From Squalus acanthias (lineage: Eukaryota), in contig CM059431.1 in NCBI GenBank assembly GCA_030390025.1, positions 94,366,001 to 94,430,000 of the forward strand: a stretch of 64,000 nucleotides of DNA, given 5' to 3'. Below, in pieces: positions 4,156 to 55,221 of this stretch. The position numbers were made by a program, and so were the translations under genes. The notes beneath the pieces are model-generated. The model did no database searches and was not told where the DNA came from. It saw nothing but the letters and a program-made list of their open reading frames with translations. Within the stretch, counting starts at the first letter, position 1. Each line of letters starts with the position of its first letter.

Positions 4156-4278
4156 GTATGTTACTTTTTGTTACAAAGGGATTAGAGTATAAGAGAAGTC
4201 TTACTACAATTATACAGGGAATTGGTGAGGCCACACCTGGAGTACTGTGTACAGTTCTGGTCTCCTTACCTAAGGAAA

Positions 4279-4620
4279 AAAATGAGAAGTCGCACAACAC
4301 CAGGTTATAGTCCAACAGATTTATTTAATTTTACAAGCTTTCGGAGCTATCGCTCCTTCGTCAGGTAAGTTCGCAATGAGAGAATCTCCCAGAATTCACA
4401 ATTTAAACCCAGACAAAATCTATTCACATTATTCGCTACAACAAAGAGCACAGCCAAGACAATGAGATGTGTCCCAGGGGGTCCAGCGTGTCAAACCACC
4501 TGCTGGCTGCATATCCTGTCAATTTGTGTTCTTGTGTTTTTAAAAAAAAAAAAACACCTGGGAAGACCGGCCATGATGTCAAGTCACGTTCTGTATCGTG
4601 ACATGAACCCGATATCGCGA
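4279..4620 (-). mobile_element. Short non-coding Penelope-like retroelement with hammerhead motif
   Basis: 13-bp TSD TTACCTAAGGAAA (4266-4278 and 4621-4633); first ~220 bp are very similar to 52399-52623; contains a hammerhead core. Confidence 0.85.
4331..4368 (-). ncRNA. Minimal type I hammerhead ribozyme motif
   Basis: Minus strand reads UUAC-CUGACGA-A-GGAGC-GAUA-GCUCC-GAAA-GC-UU-GUAA: conserved core, 5-bp stem II, 4-bp stem I, palindromic AAGCUU in place of stem III. Confidence 0.8.
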
Positions 4621-40432: not shown

Positions 40433-41223
40433 GGGCTCGAATTTCCAAGCCCCGTGGAGGCGGGTTTGGAGGCGGGAAACTTGCAGATTCGGGGGGCACG
40501 TACCCATCCCACCCCCAACCCGCCTCCATGCCAATGTCCCAGGAGGCGGGTACCCGACCTATGCTGGGAGCCGCCTCCCTGAGGCGGGAAGGGGATTAGT
40601 GCCAATTAACTGCCTGTTAACAGGTAATTAACAGGCAGTTTTTTGGCTAATCCCTATTTTTAGCCCTGAAGTGTGGGCTGCCCAACGGCTCCAAACCACG
40701 CCAAGTTAGTGAGGCGGACCGTTGGTCTGCAGGGCTTGGAGGGGTTGAGATGTCCGGTGTACAAGTGAGTGATAGGTGCATGAGTGCAGAGGTAAGTGTT
40801 TGGTGTGTGTAAAGTGTTTTAATAAGTTTTACTTACCTTTACTTTCCCCTCCAGGCTTCCTCCCTTCAGTTCTCGGGAGTCCCTCAGCTCACCGGCACAG
40901 AAAGCAGAATGGCCGCTGAGCTGTCAAAAGCTGCAGCCTCTGCTTTCTGGTCTGGAGAGCTCTAACTGAGTCTGAGTAGAAGGACTCAAGTTAGAAAACA
41001 GATTGTCAGTGTTTGACAGCTTCACAGAGCTGTCAAACGCTGATATTTCATCTGTCAAAAGCTCTTGACAGATGAAATGTCAATCGCTGACGTCACCAGT
41101 ATCCAAGTGTCCCTTAATTGGCCTGCTGAGCCCGCTGGGCGGGCTTAACAAGGTCAATCAAGGGAAAGTAGCGTGGGTTGGCCACAAATCGATGGAGGCA
41201 GGACTACAACCCAAAAAGTGGGA
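40433..41223 (+). mobile_element. Harbinger-type non-autonomous element (right end lost)
   Basis: TAT|GGGCTCGAATTTCC; homologous to 42224-42635. Confidence 0.75.
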
Positions 41224-41345
41224 GTCAGGTGAAGTGAAGAAATACCTTCACTTCACCTGACGAAGGAGCAGCCGCTCCGAAAGCTTGTGATTTCAAATAA
41301 AACTGTTGGACTATAACCTGGTGTTGTGCGACTTCTCACTTGTGT
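41224..41345 (+). mobile_element. Penelope-like terminal fragment with an inverted 5' duplication
   Basis: Reverse complement of the ends of the 4279 and 52399 inserts; 16-bp perfect inverted repeat 41224-41239 / 41246-41261. Confidence 0.82.
41253..41290 (+). ncRNA. Minimal type I hammerhead ribozyme motif
   Basis: UCAC-CUGACGA-A-GGAGC-AGCC-GCUCC-GAAA-GC-UU-GUGA. Confidence 0.8.
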
Positions 41346-42223
41346 TTCAGTTGGGGAGACATCAGATGGCCTTGCAGGACGACCTCGATCAGCTGTGAAC
41401 CTGGAAGCCCCAGCTGTCGACTGCACCACCTCGGCATGGGCAGAAACAGCCTGGGCTAGCTGACAGGCAGTGGCAAGGGCAATGGCAGAGTGGCAGTGGT
41501 GGGAGCAGGAATGCTGTCATCTTGAAAGAGGATCCTGCTCCACAGACCCACTACCACTCCTCTGGGGTGGTGGCTCAGTATTCCTAGAAATCTGTTGGAG
41601 GATAGATTGCTGGGCTGCTGCAGCATCCTGCAAGCCCCTTTCAACACTGGTAAACCCAGCCATGATGGCAGCAGTCAAACTTGGCAGCAAGCTGAGACTG
41701 CAGCATTGAGACATTGGGTCACTACTGCCTGTGCTGCAATGGAAGCCGCAACATCACTCATCACATGGCTGGGTCGACAAGATCTCTTCTGGAGTTGTCC
41801 ATCATTTCCAGGTTGGAAATCATGGGCTCCAAGTTCTGCGCAAAGCCCTGTCCAATGTTGGAGCTGGACTCCTCCATGTTTCTTGCCATTGTCAAGAGGC
41901 TTTCTGGAAGGCTTGCCATTGCAACTAGCATTTCAATGTGCATGCCCATCACCCTTCTTCTGAAGGCCACCCCGTCGAGGTCATCATCTGAGTCACGTGC
42001 AGCAGAACGCGCACGCGAACCCGCCCTCCAGGGAGCAGGCCCCTGAGCTACCCTATTCCCCTGGCCTTGCTGCAGCCCACTCATGCCCGCTGCCTCACCA
42101 TGTGCAGATCCTGCATCTTTACTACCCTCTACATTCCACGCAGTGCCAGTTTCTGAGCTGGTGTCTGCGAGTGTCAGATGCAGTGATGGTGTGTCTTCTT
42201 CTTCATCTCAACTCTGAGGCATA

Positions 42224-42635
42224 GGGGGGAAATTTGCCAGCCCTGGTGAGGCGGGTATGGAGGCGGGACTGCCGGGAAAATGGCAGAAACTGGGAGTGGG
42301 TACCGACCCCACCTACGTGCCATCTTCCCGGGAGGCGGGTCCCCGACTCGCGCAGGGACCCGTCTCCTCGAAACAGGAAGGGGATTACAGCCAATTAACT
42401 GCCTGTTAACAGCTTCTCAAAGCTGTCAAACGTTGACAATTCATCTGTCAAAATTTCTGACAGATGAAACGTCATACGCTGACGTCCTCTGTCACCGGAT
42501 TTCCCTTAATTGGGGCTTAACAAGGTCAATCAAGGGAAAATAGCATGGGTTGTCCAGACGTCGTTAGGGGCGGGACTGAAACCCGACAACAAGCAGTACC
42601 GCCCCCAACGCGTCCCCATTGATAAAATCCAGCCC
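42224..42635 (+). mobile_element. Harbinger-type MITE (412 bp)
   Basis: Termini GGGGGGAAATTTG / GATAAAATCCAGCCC; TSD ATA (42221-42223 and 42636-42638). Confidence 0.82.
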
Positions 42636-51507: not shown

Positions 51508-52398
51508 AAGCCTTTGTGCTATTTAACACGTTCAAGATTTTTTTCCCTTCAATAATGTTATTGAAGTATATATATTTAGTAAAGAGTATAGTTTTTATGA
51601 TTGTGACATAGATCAGTGTATTTGCATTTTAACAGTGATTTATGCTGGATTGGCAATGCACTGAGCAATAACAGAGGGATAATTATAGGCTTAAATCAGG
51701 ATCAAGTCTCGTGTCTCATCACAAATTATAATAACTCTGAATAAGTAGGACATTGGCTCATTAAAACACTGCACTTAGATTGACATTTACTTCCCATGTT
51801 GGTGACCGACAGAGACAAGCCCCTGTCTTGGCCTCTCTTGTTATAGTCAAGCAGATTCAAGATGGGAATTTTCAACCAGGTTCCCATTCCTGATCACTGT
51901 TGCAGTGAGTTCTGGCTGAAGCACGTGGGTGTCGGGTGAGGACAGCATCAGGCTTGGCTGTGATGCCCTCCATAATTCAGTAGCCTACAGCCACTCAGTA
52001 TCTAGACTCGCACATAAAGAAGGGTGATTTGGGACGGCACCAAAAGGCTGCCAGTGCTTGTGGAACTGCACCCTTGCATCAGTTATGTCTTTCAGGAAGG
52101 AGAGTAGAAGATGAGATGTTTTTAAGCAGCTTCCTTTGCTATAGGAAGTTAAAAGCCCATGGGATCCAGGGCAAAGTGTCAAGTTGGATTCAAAACTGGC
52201 TTGGAGACAGGAAGCAGAGGGTAATGGTTGATGGGTGTTTTTGTGATGGAAGGCTGTTTCCAGTGGGGTTCCGCAGGATCAGTACTAGGTCCCTTGCTTT
52301 TTGTGGTATATCTCAATGATCTAGACTTGAATATAGGGGGTATGATTAAGAAGTTTGCAGATGATACTAAAATCGTCTGTGTGGTTGATACTGAAGAA

Positions 52399-52623
52399 AA
52401 TGAGAAGTCGCACAACACCAGGTTATAGTCCAACAGATTTATTTAATTTTACAAGCTTTCGGAGCTATTCGCTCCTTCCTCAGGTAAGTTAGCAGTGAGA
52501 GAATCTCCCAGAATTCACAATTTAAACACAGACAAAATCTATTCAAATCTTTCCCTACATCAAAGACACACTAAGAGTACAGCCAAGACAATGAGATGTG
52601 TCCCAGGGGGTCCAACGTGTCAA
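52399..52623 (-). mobile_element. Short Penelope-like retroelement with hammerhead motif
   Basis: 9-bp TSD ACTGAAGAA (52390-52398 and 52624-52632); homologous to 4279-4495. Confidence 0.85.
52449..52487 (-). ncRNA. Minimal type I hammerhead ribozyme motif
   Basis: UUAC-CUGAGGA-A-GGAGC-GAAUA-GCUCC-GAAA-GC-UU-GUAA. Confidence 0.78.
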
Positions 52624-55221
52624 ACTGAAGAAGGAAGCTGTAGACTGCAGGAAGATATCAATACATTCGTCAGGTGGGCAGAACAGTGGCAAATGGAATT
52701 CAATCCAGAGAAATGTGAGGTAATGCATTTGGGGAGGGCTAACAAGGAAAGGGAATGGTACACATTAAATGGTAGGACACTGAGTAGTGTAGAGGAACAA
52801 AGGGAGCGTGGAGTGCATGTCCACAGATCCCTGAAGGTAGCAGGCCAAGTAGATAAGGTGGTTAAGAAGGCATACGGAATGCTTGCCTTTATTAGCCGTG
52901 GCATAGAATACAAGAGCAGGGGGGTTATGCTTCAACTGTATAAAACACTAGTTAGGCCTCAGCTAGAGTACTGCGTGCAGTTCTGGTCACCACATTACAG
53001 GAAAGATGTGATTGCACTTGAGAGGGTACAGAGGAGATTTACAAGGATGTTGCCGGGAGTAGAGAATCTTAGCTATGAGGAAAGACTGGATAGGCTGGGT
53101 CTGTTTTCCTTGGAACAGAGGAGGCTGAGGGGAGACCTTATTGAGATGTATAAAATTATGAGGAGCACAGATAAAGTGGATAGAAAGGACCTATTGCCCT
53201 TAGCAGAGGGGTCAAAAGCTAGGGGGCACAGATTTAAAGTAATTGGGGGAAGGTTTAGAGGGGATTTGAGGGGAAATTTCTTCACCCAGAGGGTTGTGGG
53301 GGTCTGGAACTCACTGCCTGAAAGGGTGGTAGAGGCAGGAACCCTAACCACATTTAGAAAGTACTTGGATGTGCACTTGGGATGCTGTAATCTGCAGGGC
53401 TATGGACCAAGAGCTGGGAAGTGGAATTAGGCTGGATAGCTCTTTGTTGGCCGGCGCGGACATGATGGGCCGAAATGGCCTCCTTCCGTGCTGTAACTTT
53501 CTATGATTCTAGGAGTTACTGTAACTTTGTAACTGTCTTCAGGACCCAGATGATGTTCAATGATGTCCTAGTCTGTCAGTCCATTTTTATTTTGTTCAAA
53601 GAACAAGGTTGGAGACCATGGCCTCGAAGACCACTGGGCCCTTGATCCTGGCATAAATGTTGGGAACCACCCACCAATGACCTCCAGCACTGACCCCACC
53701 AAGCTCGCAGAGTCAAGGGGAGGTCATCTCAGTAAACATAATATGAGCGGGTGCCTGCACGAGTAGAGGCCGCATCTTGGGTGCCCACCATGAAGTCGAG
53801 GCCACAAAATATGATTTTGGGTGTCCACTACAGGAGGGATATGGGTGTCCCCCAACCCCCATAAACATTACACAACAGTGATCATTGGCTCCTTTATAAA
53901 GGAACTGAGGAAAACTTTAAACTTCAACTTTAAATCTCCGAGGTGGGCCTCACTTCTGTATTTGGATGGGCGAGTATGTCTGGCCCCATTTGGTGTATGG
54001 CCAGCCACTTTTCCACCAGGCCTGACACTCTCTTGACCGGTCTCACTCCCACTTAAACAGCTGGACTTGTTTAGGGTGGGAGGAGGCACTGTTCCTTATA
54101 AAGCCCCAGTGAAAACTCCCAGAAAAGGCAGAGATGTGGAAATTCAACCACCATTTTCAATTGAAATTTCACACAAAACCAAATACTTCTCATGTATTAA
54201 CACAAAATGGAAATAGTGCTATTTAAGGAATCATTTAAGTTACGTAGTTTCTAAAGCAAGCACATTTCTGTCAGCAATGGTGAGATCAATATCTGCCTCC
54301 TATGACAGATTGGATTTCTTGACCATCTCATTCTGTGGACTACAAATGTTCTCCTTCTTCCAACCTGCCTTCGTCACTGGTAGAAGTCACTAATGGAGGT
54401 GCTTGCTAACATCTTCATTTCTACCACTAATTTCTCAAAACTGCAAACAATATCCACTAAAACCCATTACCAAAAGGTTACTCATACTCAGGTTAAGTAA
54501 TCTATGGTTTAACTGAACTAAAATCTTATCTAAAAGTTGGACTGCATATCTTTGTAAATGCTGTGTATCCAGTTTATAAACATTATATTTTTCTGTATGT
54601 AAAAATTTAATAAAATTATTAATAAAAGAAAAATTGTGGAATTGATACAGGTGTCGCAGTTCAGTGATTCGGATGAGTCTGAAGACTACTCTAAACCAAA
54701 ATACTAAACAAACACAGTGCGCTGCACCTACCTTGTCCTCATTTTAAAAAGCTCCAGGTAATCAAGTTATTGCTTCATTATTAAGAACTTTGTCTGAGAT
54801 TAGAATATGAAATATCAATTCACGTATTTCTTATCATTAATATTCTACTTAAGTTGATTCCTTTGAATGTTTCTTTTTCTGACATGTAATATAAATGATA
54901 TACAAAGGCAAATTTTGCAATTTAGCAACCCCAGCAGAACTTTGGAGCGCAGGGTGGGAATTTGGGCATTAATGCTCCCAATTCATGTTCCACACAATCT
55001 TAATAACCAAAAAATCGTGCGGGGCACAAACCAGACACACTGACCTCTGTGCCCAAATTCCTGATAATGCAAAGCTGTAAACTGGAAGCACATAAATTGC
55101 AAGAGATACTCCTGACTTGTGGGAGCCCTTTCCACAAGTTCGGTTTGGGCCTCTACATTTTACTGGACAACGGTATGAAATACTACCTACTTAATCTGGC
55201 GTCACACTGCCTTTCATTAAG

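What the first reader, a model, noticed from the sequence alone, without database searches (positions are those of the whole stretch)
41253..41290. Compensatory changes across hammerhead copies
Seen: stem I is UCAC/GUGA here but UUAC/GUAA at 4331 and 52449, a paired C-G to U-A swap. Stem II GGAGC/GCUCC is invariant while loop II varies (AGCC, GAUA, GAAUA). The only core change is at the tolerant position 7 (C or G). Inference: selection acted on RNA structure in the master elements, supporting a functional ribozyme rather than a chance motif.
Basis: partly seen in the sequence, partly recalled or inferred. Interest (0 to 1): 0.72.

Follow-up and report, generated by a model that had tools for sequence, protein, structure and literature searches.

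The report
Penelope retrotransposon minimal hammerhead copies
The three hammerhead-like motifs are the known small self-cutting RNA motif carried near the end of Penelope-like jumping genes, here in dead truncated copies, and the matched base-pair swap between copies is real but is an ordinary feature of this already described class.

Summary
The copies at 4331-4368 (-) and 52449-52487 (-) have UUAC/GUAA, loops GAUA and GAAUA, and N7 = C or G.

All three are 5'-truncated 3' ends (99-347 bp) of a Penelope-like retrotransposon (PLE). The motif fits the "minimal hammerhead" (min-HHR) that Cervera and De la Pena described in PLE terminal repeats in 2014: short open helix I, an extra A after A9, no helix III hairpin, and a palindromic AGCU that implies action as a dimer.

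The 3.7 Gb genome holds 101,296 copies of the element's conserved 21-mer and about 77,000 motifs with the core boxes.

Genome-wide, pair 2.3:1.3 is C-G 44,680, U-A 25,717, U.G 2,242 (mostly one amplified haplotype) and C.A 448.

Stem II variants seen in three or more insertion events all keep pairing. That supports selection on the fold in master copies. It rests on only two covarying pairs, and cleavage itself is untested.

A U4C core lineage (3,930 copies) also amplified.

Verdict: a new member of a known kind, of low interest. The scan had already noted this class elsewhere in the same genome.

The parts
41247..41345 (+). Copy A: 5'-truncated 3' terminal fragment of a Penelope-like element (hammerhead plus terminal segment), without the 39-nt extension
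   Evidence: blastn to the L076 unit and to L033, 88% identity; window self-blast 41250-41341 against copies B and C; no extension
41253..41290 (+). Minimal hammerhead motif of copy A. Stem I 41253-41256 with 41287-41290. Core CUGACGA 41257-41263. Extra A 41264. Stem II 41265-41269 with 41274-41278. Loop AGCC. GAA 41279-41281. Palindromic AGCU 41282-41285. U17 at 41286. Predicted cut between 41286 and 41287.
   Evidence: the minimum-energy fold gives stem I plus stem II; model R1 88.4 bits (this copy was in the training set)
41224..41261 (.). Short inverted repeat (16-nt arms, 6-nt spacer) at the 5' truncation point of copy A; the right arm is stem I 5' strand plus the first core bases
   Evidence: self-hit 41224-41261, reverse; the same junction type occurs in 39 of 169 genomic copies
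41287..41341 (+). Conserved terminal segment between the predicted cut site and the element end, shared by all subfamilies; it holds the 21-mer GGACTATAACCTGGTGTTGTG at 41308-41328
   Evidence: the 21-mer occurs 101,296 times in the genome
4274..4620 (-). Copy B: 5'-truncated 3' end of a PLE of the second subfamily group (3'UTR piece, hammerhead, terminal segment), inserted in LINE-like sequence
   Evidence: blastn to L033, 87% over 363 bp
4331..4368 (-). Minimal hammerhead motif of copy B (UUAC/GUAA stem I, loop GAUA, N7 = C); predicted cut between 4335 and 4334 on the minus strand
52397..52624 (-). Copy C: 5'-truncated 3' end of a PLE of the same subfamily group as B
   Evidence: blastn to L033, 95.6% over 228 bp; 90% identity to copy B
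52449..52487 (-). Minimal hammerhead motif of copy C (UUAC/GUAA stem I, loop GAAUA, N7 = G); predicted cut between 52453 and 52452 on the minus strand

Best explanation
The three motifs are copies of the minimal type I hammerhead ribozyme motif (min-HHR) that canonical, endonuclease-bearing Penelope-like retrotransposons carry in their terminal repeat.

In this genome one unit reads: hammerhead, a 53-55 nt terminal segment, a 39-nt extension, ATG, a roughly 850-aa ORF (reverse transcriptase plus GIY-YIG endonuclease), about 330 nt of 3'UTR, then hammerhead and terminal segment again. The window holds only dead 5'-truncated 3' ends of such units. Their differences therefore record the sequences of the master elements they were copied from.

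Shown:
- the element identity and its architecture;
- the copy numbers;
- the fit to the min-HHR descriptor;
- that variants which spread to many insertions almost always keep stems I and II paired, while loop II and N7 vary freely.

Inferred:
- In the element's RNA, two motifs pair through the palindromic AGCU, or AAGCUU (from a tandem or longer-than-unit transcript, or two RNAs). This forms the missing helix III, and each motif cuts after U17/C17.
- Cutting would trim the transcript just upstream of the terminal segment that serves as the start site for reverse transcription.
- Selection on that fold in master copies produced the C-G to U.G to U-A path in stem I and the C-G, U.G, U-A path in stem II.
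For: Element identity:
- Locus L076 has a natural 847-aa frame with RVT_1 at 37.8 bits (cut-off 29.6).
- L001 has a GIY-YIG match at 22.3 bits (cut-off 22.6) with YLIRC..YIGET visible.
- The ATG follows directly after the 39-nt extension.
- Of 55 inverted pairs, 53 carry the extension on exactly one arm. Craig 2021 (PMC8557442, passages) and Frangieh 2024 (PMC11167929, passages) describe the inverted 5'-truncated partners and the one-sided 30-40 bp tail as PLE signatures.

Motif fit, in 136 parsed copies of 169 tail-anchored ones:
- extra A after A9 in 136 of 136;
- G10.1-C11.1 in 131 of 136;
- AGCU in 136 of 136 (the parse required GAAAGCT with at most 1 mismatch);
- N17 = U in 116 and C in 20.
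These are the traits listed in PMC4209133 (results and discussion read).

Fold:
- The minimum-energy fold of each window motif is stem I plus stem II.
- RNAalifold independently predicts stem I (3 bp) plus stem II (5 bp).

Selection:
- 96.4% of cells are paired, against 24-51% when partners are slid.
- Genome counts for 2.3:1.3 are C-G 44,680, U-A 25,717, U.G 2,242 and C.A 448.
- Stem II variants present in 3 or more events (10.3 A>G, 10.5 C>U, 11.1, 11.2 and 11.4 C>U, and 11.5 G>A always with 10.5 U) all keep pairing. The four breaking variants each occur in 1 event.
- N7 takes all four bases and there are 25 loop II variants.
- The core transition A6>G has only 72 copies.
Against: - No Rfam hammerhead family matches, even at E up to 10.
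- Cleavage was not and could not be tested here. The public runs were contigs of guessed kind and showed no RNA ends.
- Only 2 of 9 pairs covary, and 86 of 500 shuffles reach that number. The subfamilies are close relatives (ORF 95% identical), so the number of independent events may be as low as two.
- The fourth stem I pair is broken in amplified subfamilies: 2.4 U>C in 7 events and U>G in 5 events.
- C.A at 10.5:11.5 has 1,135 copies. Most look like CpG decay, but one haplotype occurs in inverted pairs and so was present in template RNA.
- A U4C core lineage reached 3,930 copies.
- 5' junctions of inverted copies do not pile up at the predicted cut site.
- Published work: low in vitro activity of metazoan min-HHRs (PMC4209133). 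For an Anolis PLE, catalytic mutants did not affect insertion in vitro, and no RNA-seq reads ended at the cut site (PMC11167929).
Confidence: 0.85

Rival explanations
1. The fold is under selection, but not for self-cleavage. The conserved stems and boxes would serve as a structured RNA signal of the element, for example a binding or dimerisation site for its reverse transcriptase/endonuclease, or part of an internal promoter. The hammerhead core would then be an inherited feature with little or no catalytic role in this lineage.
For: - The U4C lineage has 3,930 copies, against 72 for the neighbouring A6>G change. It diversified further and shows C-G, U.G and U-A states in stem II within the lineage.
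- There is no pile-up of 5' ends at the predicted cut site.
- PMC11167929 (passages): hammerhead catalytic mutants do not change insertion in vitro, and no RNA-seq ends lie at the cut site.
- PMC8557442 (passages): PLE clades without hammerheads proliferate well, and the hammerheads may 'simply parasitize PLEs'.
- PMC4209133: low in vitro activity.
Against: - All other catalytic positions stay fixed across about 77,000 copies, while N7 and loop II vary freely. That is the specific hammerhead pattern rather than a generic hairpin.
- U4C is a known natural variant that keeps enough activity in vivo for viroid infectivity (PMC3088659, discussion passage).
- Fungal PLE hammerheads cleave well (PMC4209133).
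Confidence: 0.25
2. No selection on RNA structure. The C-G/U-A difference and the wobble variants are neutral differences between a few subfamilies that happened to amplify, and their high counts only reflect shared ancestry.
For: - Only two pairs covary, and the number of covarying pairs is not above the shuffles (86 of 500).
- The subfamilies are close relatives.
- Most stem II variants are C>U or A>G transitions, the commonest mutations, some at CpG sites.
- Pair 2.4:1.4 and, partly, pair 10.5:11.5 tolerate mismatches.
Against: - Of the ten possible single transitions in stem II, the five that keep pairing each occur in 3 to 17 insertion events. Of the five that break pairing, 10.2 G>A occurs in one event, 11.5 G>A occurs only together with its compensating 10.5 U, and the other three were not seen.
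- U.G is five times commoner than C.A at 2.3:1.3, although each arises by one transition.
- The 3'UTR just upstream has diverged beyond alignment, while the core boxes are intact.
- The same pattern is reported for PLE hammerheads in many animals (PMC4209133).
Confidence: 0.08
3. The motifs belong to non-autonomous 'non-LTR retrozymes' (tandem hammerhead repeats that give circular RNAs) rather than to autonomous PLE copies.
For: - The short copies in the window lack any ORF.
- The 2026 preprint 10.64898/2026.07.22.740005 (abstract and two passages seen) derives vertebrate retrozymes from PLE terminal repeats and reports them in one cartilaginous fish.
Against: - The window copies are single and dispersed, 37-48 kb apart, not tandem.
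- Copies B and C align with the 3' end of ORF-bearing units.
- In the sample the motifs come as inverted pairs flanking PLE ORF pieces, or as 5'-truncated ends.
Confidence: 0.05

Closest known systems
Minimal hammerhead ribozymes (min-HHR) of metazoan Penelope-like elements (Cervera and De la Pena 2014, PMC4209133)
   Same: - Type I motif with a short open helix I.
- An unpaired base between A9 and 10.1.
- A conserved G10.1-C11.1 pair.
- No helix III hairpin, and a palindromic 15.2-16.2 that implies a dimeric active form.
- Location in the PLE terminal repeat.
- Pairs on opposite strands a few hundred bp apart; most copies are single truncated ones.
[quoted passage not shown]
   Different: - Helix II is 5 bp here, against 7-8 bp in the Schistosoma families.
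- The copy number (about 77,000 motifs with core boxes, 101,296 terminal segments) is roughly ten times the 4,000 (coelacanth) and 9,000 (Xenopus) given in that paper.
- An amplified U4C core lineage is present, whereas the paper's exceptional core variant was U3-A8.
- Activity was not tested here.
Canonical EN+ Penelope-like elements (Penelope/Poseidon, Neptune clades; Craig et al. 2021 PMC8557442; Frangieh et al. 2024 PMC11167929)
   Same: [quoted passage not shown]
- An inverted 5'-truncated partner copy.
- A 30-40 bp 'tail' extension on one end only.
- A hammerhead near the unit junction.
   Different: - The clade was not determined. A CHGKLCKTC linker is visible; that this is a Neptune-type trait is recalled, not tested.
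- Here the hammerhead lies about 95 nt upstream of the ATG, whereas in the Anolis Poseidon element the ORF starts inside the motif.
Rfam type I hammerheads (Hammerhead_1 and related families; family names recalled, not returned by any search), such as the Schistosoma and newt satellite motifs
   Same: - The CUGANGA and GAAA boxes.
- Helices I and II.
- Cleavage after H17.
- Dimer-dependent activity when helix III is weak (Forster et al. 1988, as cited in PMC4209133).
   Different: - No Rfam hammerhead model matches.
- There is no helix III hairpin or loop 3.
- No recognisable loop I to loop II tertiary contact was established.

Membership tests
PLE minimal hammerhead (min-HHR) | Core boxes CUGANGA and GAAA in the right order and spacing | tested here: met
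   3 of 3 window copies. 123 of 169 tail-anchored genomic copies have both boxes exact; most of the rest are truncated inside the motif.
PLE minimal hammerhead (min-HHR) | Helix II closed by G10.1-C11.1, with an unpaired base between A9 and 10.1 | tested here: met
   G-C in 131 of 136; extra A in 136 of 136. Stem II is 99.2% paired.
PLE minimal hammerhead (min-HHR) | Short, open-ended helix I (type I topology) | tested here: met
   4 bp in the three window copies. Only 3 bp are conserved genome-wide, which is shorter than the published 4-5 bp.
PLE minimal hammerhead (min-HHR) | No helix III hairpin; palindromic 15.2-16.2 that allows a dimeric helix III | tested here: met
   A-GC-U in 136 of 136 parsed copies (the parse required GAAAGCT with at most 1 mismatch). 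The dimer itself was not recovered as the minimum-energy cofold.
PLE minimal hammerhead (min-HHR) | Cleavage-site base 17 is not G | tested here: met
   U in 116 and C in 20 of 136.
PLE minimal hammerhead (min-HHR) | Site-specific self-cleavage | not testable with these tools
   No raw RNA reads were available; contigs cannot show RNA ends.
Rfam hammerhead families | Score at or above the family's gathering threshold | tested here: not met
   0 matches in the whole window at gathering level. No hammerhead family at E up to 10 in 41000-41500.
Penelope-like element (EN+) | Reverse transcriptase domain in the single ORF | tested here: met
   RVT_1 E = 2.2e-9, 37.8 bits, cut-off 29.6, in L076:3470-6013.
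Penelope-like element (EN+) | C-terminal GIY-YIG endonuclease | tested here: inconclusive
   GIY-YIG E = 1.6e-4, 22.3 bits, just under the 22.6 cut-off. The YLIRC..YIGET motif is visible.
Penelope-like element (EN+) | Inverted 5'-truncated partner copies, and a 30-40 bp tail extension on one end only | tested here: met
   55 inverted pairs in the sample, of which 53 carry the 39-nt extension on exactly one arm. L001 and L076 anatomy.
Penelope-like element (EN+) | The reverse transcriptase groups with PLE/telomerase reverse transcriptases in a phylogeny | not tested
   No tree or named-homologue search was run.
Non-LTR retrozyme | Head-to-tail tandem arrays of short hammerhead-bearing units | tested here: not met
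   The three window copies are single and 37-48 kb apart. Genome-wide tandem arrays were not searched for.

The most novel reading that the evidence does not exclude
The roughly 77,000 young copies act as a natural deep mutational record of a minimal hammerhead. Within it, a U4C core lineage (3,930 copies) kept amplifying and kept evolving compensatory stem II changes. This would mean the fold is selected in these elements for something other than, or in addition to, efficient self-cleavage. One candidate is pairing of two template RNAs through the AGCU palindrome, or recognition by the element's reverse transcriptase next to its start site.
Probability: 0.2. Interest if true: 0.55.

Novelty: new member of a known kind. 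Interest (0 to 1): 0.27.

Why it matters
It matters little beyond annotation. These motifs should be masked as Penelope-like element ends, not reported as genes or as new ribozymes.

Two modest points of value:
- This genome carries about ten times as many minimal hammerheads as the counts the 2014 paper (PMC4209133) gave for coelacanth (about 4,000) and Xenopus (about 9,000).
- The copies are young enough that amplified variants can be told apart from decay variants. That gives a cheap in-genome readout of which hammerhead positions the transposing lineages could change. The role of hammerheads in PLE transposition is still open, since cleavage is dispensable in vitro per PMC11167929, and this dataset could help frame that test.

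Tried and rejected
- Rfam search at gathering level over the whole window, and at E up to 10 around copy A: no hammerhead family.
- RNA evidence for cleavage: all 24 runs offered were kept as contigs, 23 of guessed or unknown kind and one on record as RNA. Laying four of them (X1, X2, X3, X6) gave depth that simply follows copy number, no joints, and no begin or end places. This says nothing either way.
- Cofolding two copies did not return the AGCU:AGCU dimer as the minimum-energy structure. The energy model has no knowledge of the hammerhead core, so this is not informative.
- 5' ends of inverted copies: junction points spread from 20 to 85 nt before the 21-mer, with no pile-up at the predicted cut site.
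- Arm-concordant against arm-discordant variants in 38 inverted pairs: too few discordant stem II sites, and stem I calls were confounded by junctions, so the comparison was not used.
- A distal second part of helix I (AUUU/AAAU in one subfamily, UAA/UUA in another) was seen by eye. It sits in different registers in the two groups, so it was dropped.
The positional sample is therefore 169 copies from 98 regions, not all 200 listed places.
- A search term that was too short gave an error and was corrected.

Full report
**Observation**

The sequence at 41253-41290 (+) reads TCAC CTGACGA A GGAGC AGCC GCTCC GAAA GCTT GTGA. The two other copies lie on the minus strand at 4331-4368 and 52449-52487. 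They read TTAC...GTAA, with loops GATA and GAATA and with N7 = C and G.

The motif is not a chance hit. The pattern occurs 3 times in the window against 0 in 100 shuffles. Its genome-wide form occurs 19,090 + 18,787 times against 0 for the reversed control.

- an unpaired A between A9 and stem II;
- the absence of a helix III hairpin, since only A15.1-G-C-U16.1 is present, part of the palindrome AAGCUU;
- a conserved stretch of 53-55 nt that follows the motif and then ends abruptly in all three copies;
- in copy A, a 16-nt inverted repeat at 41224-41261 that abuts the motif.

**What the element is**

The window lies in a 3.7 Gb assembly. In locus L001 two motifs face away from each other. Between them lies the C-terminal part of an ORF with a GIY-YIG-like end (22.3 bits, cut-off 22.6), then about 330 nt of untranslated sequence, then the motif and the terminal stretch. 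The whole is flanked by a target duplication.

Locus L076 holds an inverted truncated copy followed by a full unit. That unit reads: motif, terminal stretch, a 39-nt extension, ATG, an 847-aa natural frame with RVT_1 at 37.8 bits (cut-off 29.6), 3'UTR, then motif, terminal stretch and extension again.

In a positional sample of 169 copies anchored on the terminal 21-mer, 71 carry the extension. Of 55 inverted pairs, 53 carry it on exactly one arm. Inverted 5'-truncated partners and a 30-40 bp tail on one end only are the published signatures of Penelope-like elements (PMC8557442, passages). Frangieh et al. (PMC11167929, passages) traced the tail to two adjacent start sites of reverse transcription.

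The window itself has no PLE ORF (tblastn found none). It has only three 5'-truncated ends: 41247-41345, 4274-4620 and 52397-52624. A covariance model built from the sample finds only these three in the window.

**What the motif is**

Cervera and De la Pena (PMC4209133; results, discussion and methods read) defined a minimal hammerhead in the terminal repeats of metazoan PLEs. Its traits are:
- a short helix I;
- an unpaired base between A9 and 10.1;
- a conserved G10.1-C11.1 pair;
- no helix III or loop 3, with a palindromic 15.2-16.2;
- predicted action as a dimer;
- low activity in vitro;
- copies mostly single, or in opposite-strand pairs;

The motif here meets each sequence criterion. The extra A is present in 136 of 136 parsed copies. 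G-C at 10.1:11.1 is present in 131 of 136. AGCU is present in 136 of 136, with the caveat that the parse required GAAAGCT with at most one mismatch. N17 is U in 116 and C in 20.

Each window motif folds on its own into stem I plus stem II. RNAalifold on 116 sequences predicts stem II (5 bp) and a 3-bp stem I. No Rfam hammerhead family matches, which is expected for a motif without helix III.

**Sampling for the covariation test**

To avoid selecting on the motif, I anchored on the terminal 21-mer, which occurs 101,296 times in the genome. I fetched the regions of the first listed places on contig C1.

Of 169 copies, 136 parse as a motif. The other 33 are mostly truncated or joined inside it; by eye about 29 are truncations or junctions and 4 are mutated. 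For stem I, I dropped 23 more copies whose 12 upstream bases resemble no distant copy, because these are truncation junctions. I added the three window copies, which gave alignment A1 with 116 rows, 75 of them distinct.

**Covariation results on the alignment**

On A1, 96.4% of cells are paired. Column shuffles gave 94.2 ± 0.3% (0 of 500 reached the observed value). Sliding the partners gave 24-51%.

Only two pairs show changes on both sides:
- 2.3:1.3, with C-G 44, U-A 22, U.G 6 and other 3;
- 10.5:11.5, with C-G 70, U-A 3, U.G 1 and other 1.

Two covarying pairs is a number that 86 of 500 shuffles reach. Pair 2.4:1.4 is unpaired in 14 of 75 rows.

**Genome-wide counts**

For pair 2.3:1.3, with both boxes exact, the counts are C-G 44,680, U-A 25,717, U.G 2,242 and C.A 448. 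U.G and C.A each arise by a single transition. The listed U.G copies are mostly one haplotype, often present in both arms of inverted pairs. The listed C.A copies are scattered over many haplotypes. So a U.G lineage transposed, and no C.A lineage did.

In stem II, the variants present in three or more insertion events all keep pairing:
- 10.3 A>G, 17 events;
- 10.5 C>U, 7 events;
- 11.1 C>U, 3 events;
- 11.2 C>U, 3 events;
- 11.4 C>U, 6 events;
- 11.5 G>A, 4 events, always together with 10.5 U.

The four pair-breaking variants each occur in one event. N7 takes all four bases and loop II has 25 forms. The core change A6>G has only 72 copies.

**Evidence that cuts the other way**

- The subfamilies that differ at 2.3:1.3 are close relatives. 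Their ORFs are 95% identical over 1,905 bp, while the 3'UTR is mostly unalignable and the motif plus terminal stretch is 84-88% identical. The two covarying pairs may therefore reflect very few events.
- At 10.5:11.5 the counts are U-A 2,075, U.G 1,977 and C.A 1,135. Most C.A copies are what CpG decay of the commonest haplotype would give. One C.A haplotype, however, occurs in inverted pairs and so was present in template RNA.
- A lineage with C instead of U at core position 4 has 3,930 copies and diversified further. Perreault et al. (PMC3088659, discussion passage) note that a U4C variant lowers activity in vitro yet still permits viroid infectivity, so this is not proof of an inactive motif.
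- Junctions of inverted copies do not cluster at the predicted cut site.
- The public runs gave no information on RNA ends.
- For an Anolis PLE, catalytic mutants did not change insertion in vitro, and no RNA-seq reads ended at the cut site (PMC11167929).

**Mechanism**

Shown: the element is a PLE, the motif is its min-HHR, and the window copies are dead fragments.

Inferred, at about 0.5-0.6 for cleavage in vivo: in element RNA two motifs pair through AGCU to build helix III, and each cuts after U17 or C17. That site lies 53-55 nt before the short-form end of the element and about 95 nt before the ATG of the next unit.

The main rival, at about 0.25, is that the fold is kept for a non-catalytic role next to the reverse-transcription start site.

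**Comparison and novelty**

This is a further example of a class described in 2014, and the covariation among copies was already noted there in general terms.

What is new here is only quantitative:
- the very high copy number;
- the U.G-over-C.A asymmetry;
- the amplified U4C lineage.

I searched the paper library for Penelope-like plus hammerhead (37 papers, 15 listed), and read passages of four of the listed papers and most of a fifth. I did not see this genome's family described. I cannot exclude that it appears in supplements or repeat libraries that I did not read.

Noticed in passing
G000 contig C1 sample (loci L031-L128); example L076:6555-6595: The 39-nt extension after the terminal stretch (it ends immediately before the ORF's ATG) is present in 71 of 169 copies. 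Of 55 inverted pairs, 53 carry it on exactly one arm, 26 on the left and 27 on the right. This is a very clean example of the PLE one-sided 'tail'.
   Followed up: partly
G000 genome-wide; examples L050:2869-2931, L052, L096: A subfamily with core CCGACGA (U4 to C) has 3,930 copies. It mostly carries stem II GGAGU...ACUCC, with U.G and C-G relatives inside the same lineage.
   Followed up: partly
L032, L038, L073, L076 (subfamily with loop II AAUCGAUA): Loop II of one abundant subfamily contains the 6-nt palindrome AUCGAU. This could let two motifs kiss through their loops, in addition to the AGCU palindrome.
   Followed up: no
window 4200-4275, 52300-52396, and L001:416-1498: The PLE fragments are inserted into LINE-like reverse-transcriptase sequence ([17 protein letters not shown] ORF). 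The window is largely a mosaic of such LINE copies (many self-blast hits).
   Followed up: no
window 41027-41097: A near-perfect palindrome of about 70 nt lies just upstream of copy A. It gave weak miRNA-like Rfam hits on both strands (E 0.3-2, far below gathering).
   Followed up: no
window 41013-41212 and 42406-42584; 40440-40623 and 42231-42412: Two pairs of direct repeats, about 70-74% identical, flank copy A at about 1.4-1.8 kb spacing. They are probably fragments of another repeat family.
   Followed up: no
L076:5950-6013 against L001:2200-2371: The ORF of the otherwise full-length unit in L076 leaves the frame seen in L001 shortly before the GIY-YIG end. So even this unit is not intact.
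   Followed up: partly
Sequencing-run output: Runs labelled with several different organism codes (A, B, J, K, L) hold 42-80% of the sampled 31-mers of the element's 3' end. Near-identical copies therefore occur under more than one species label.
   Followed up: no
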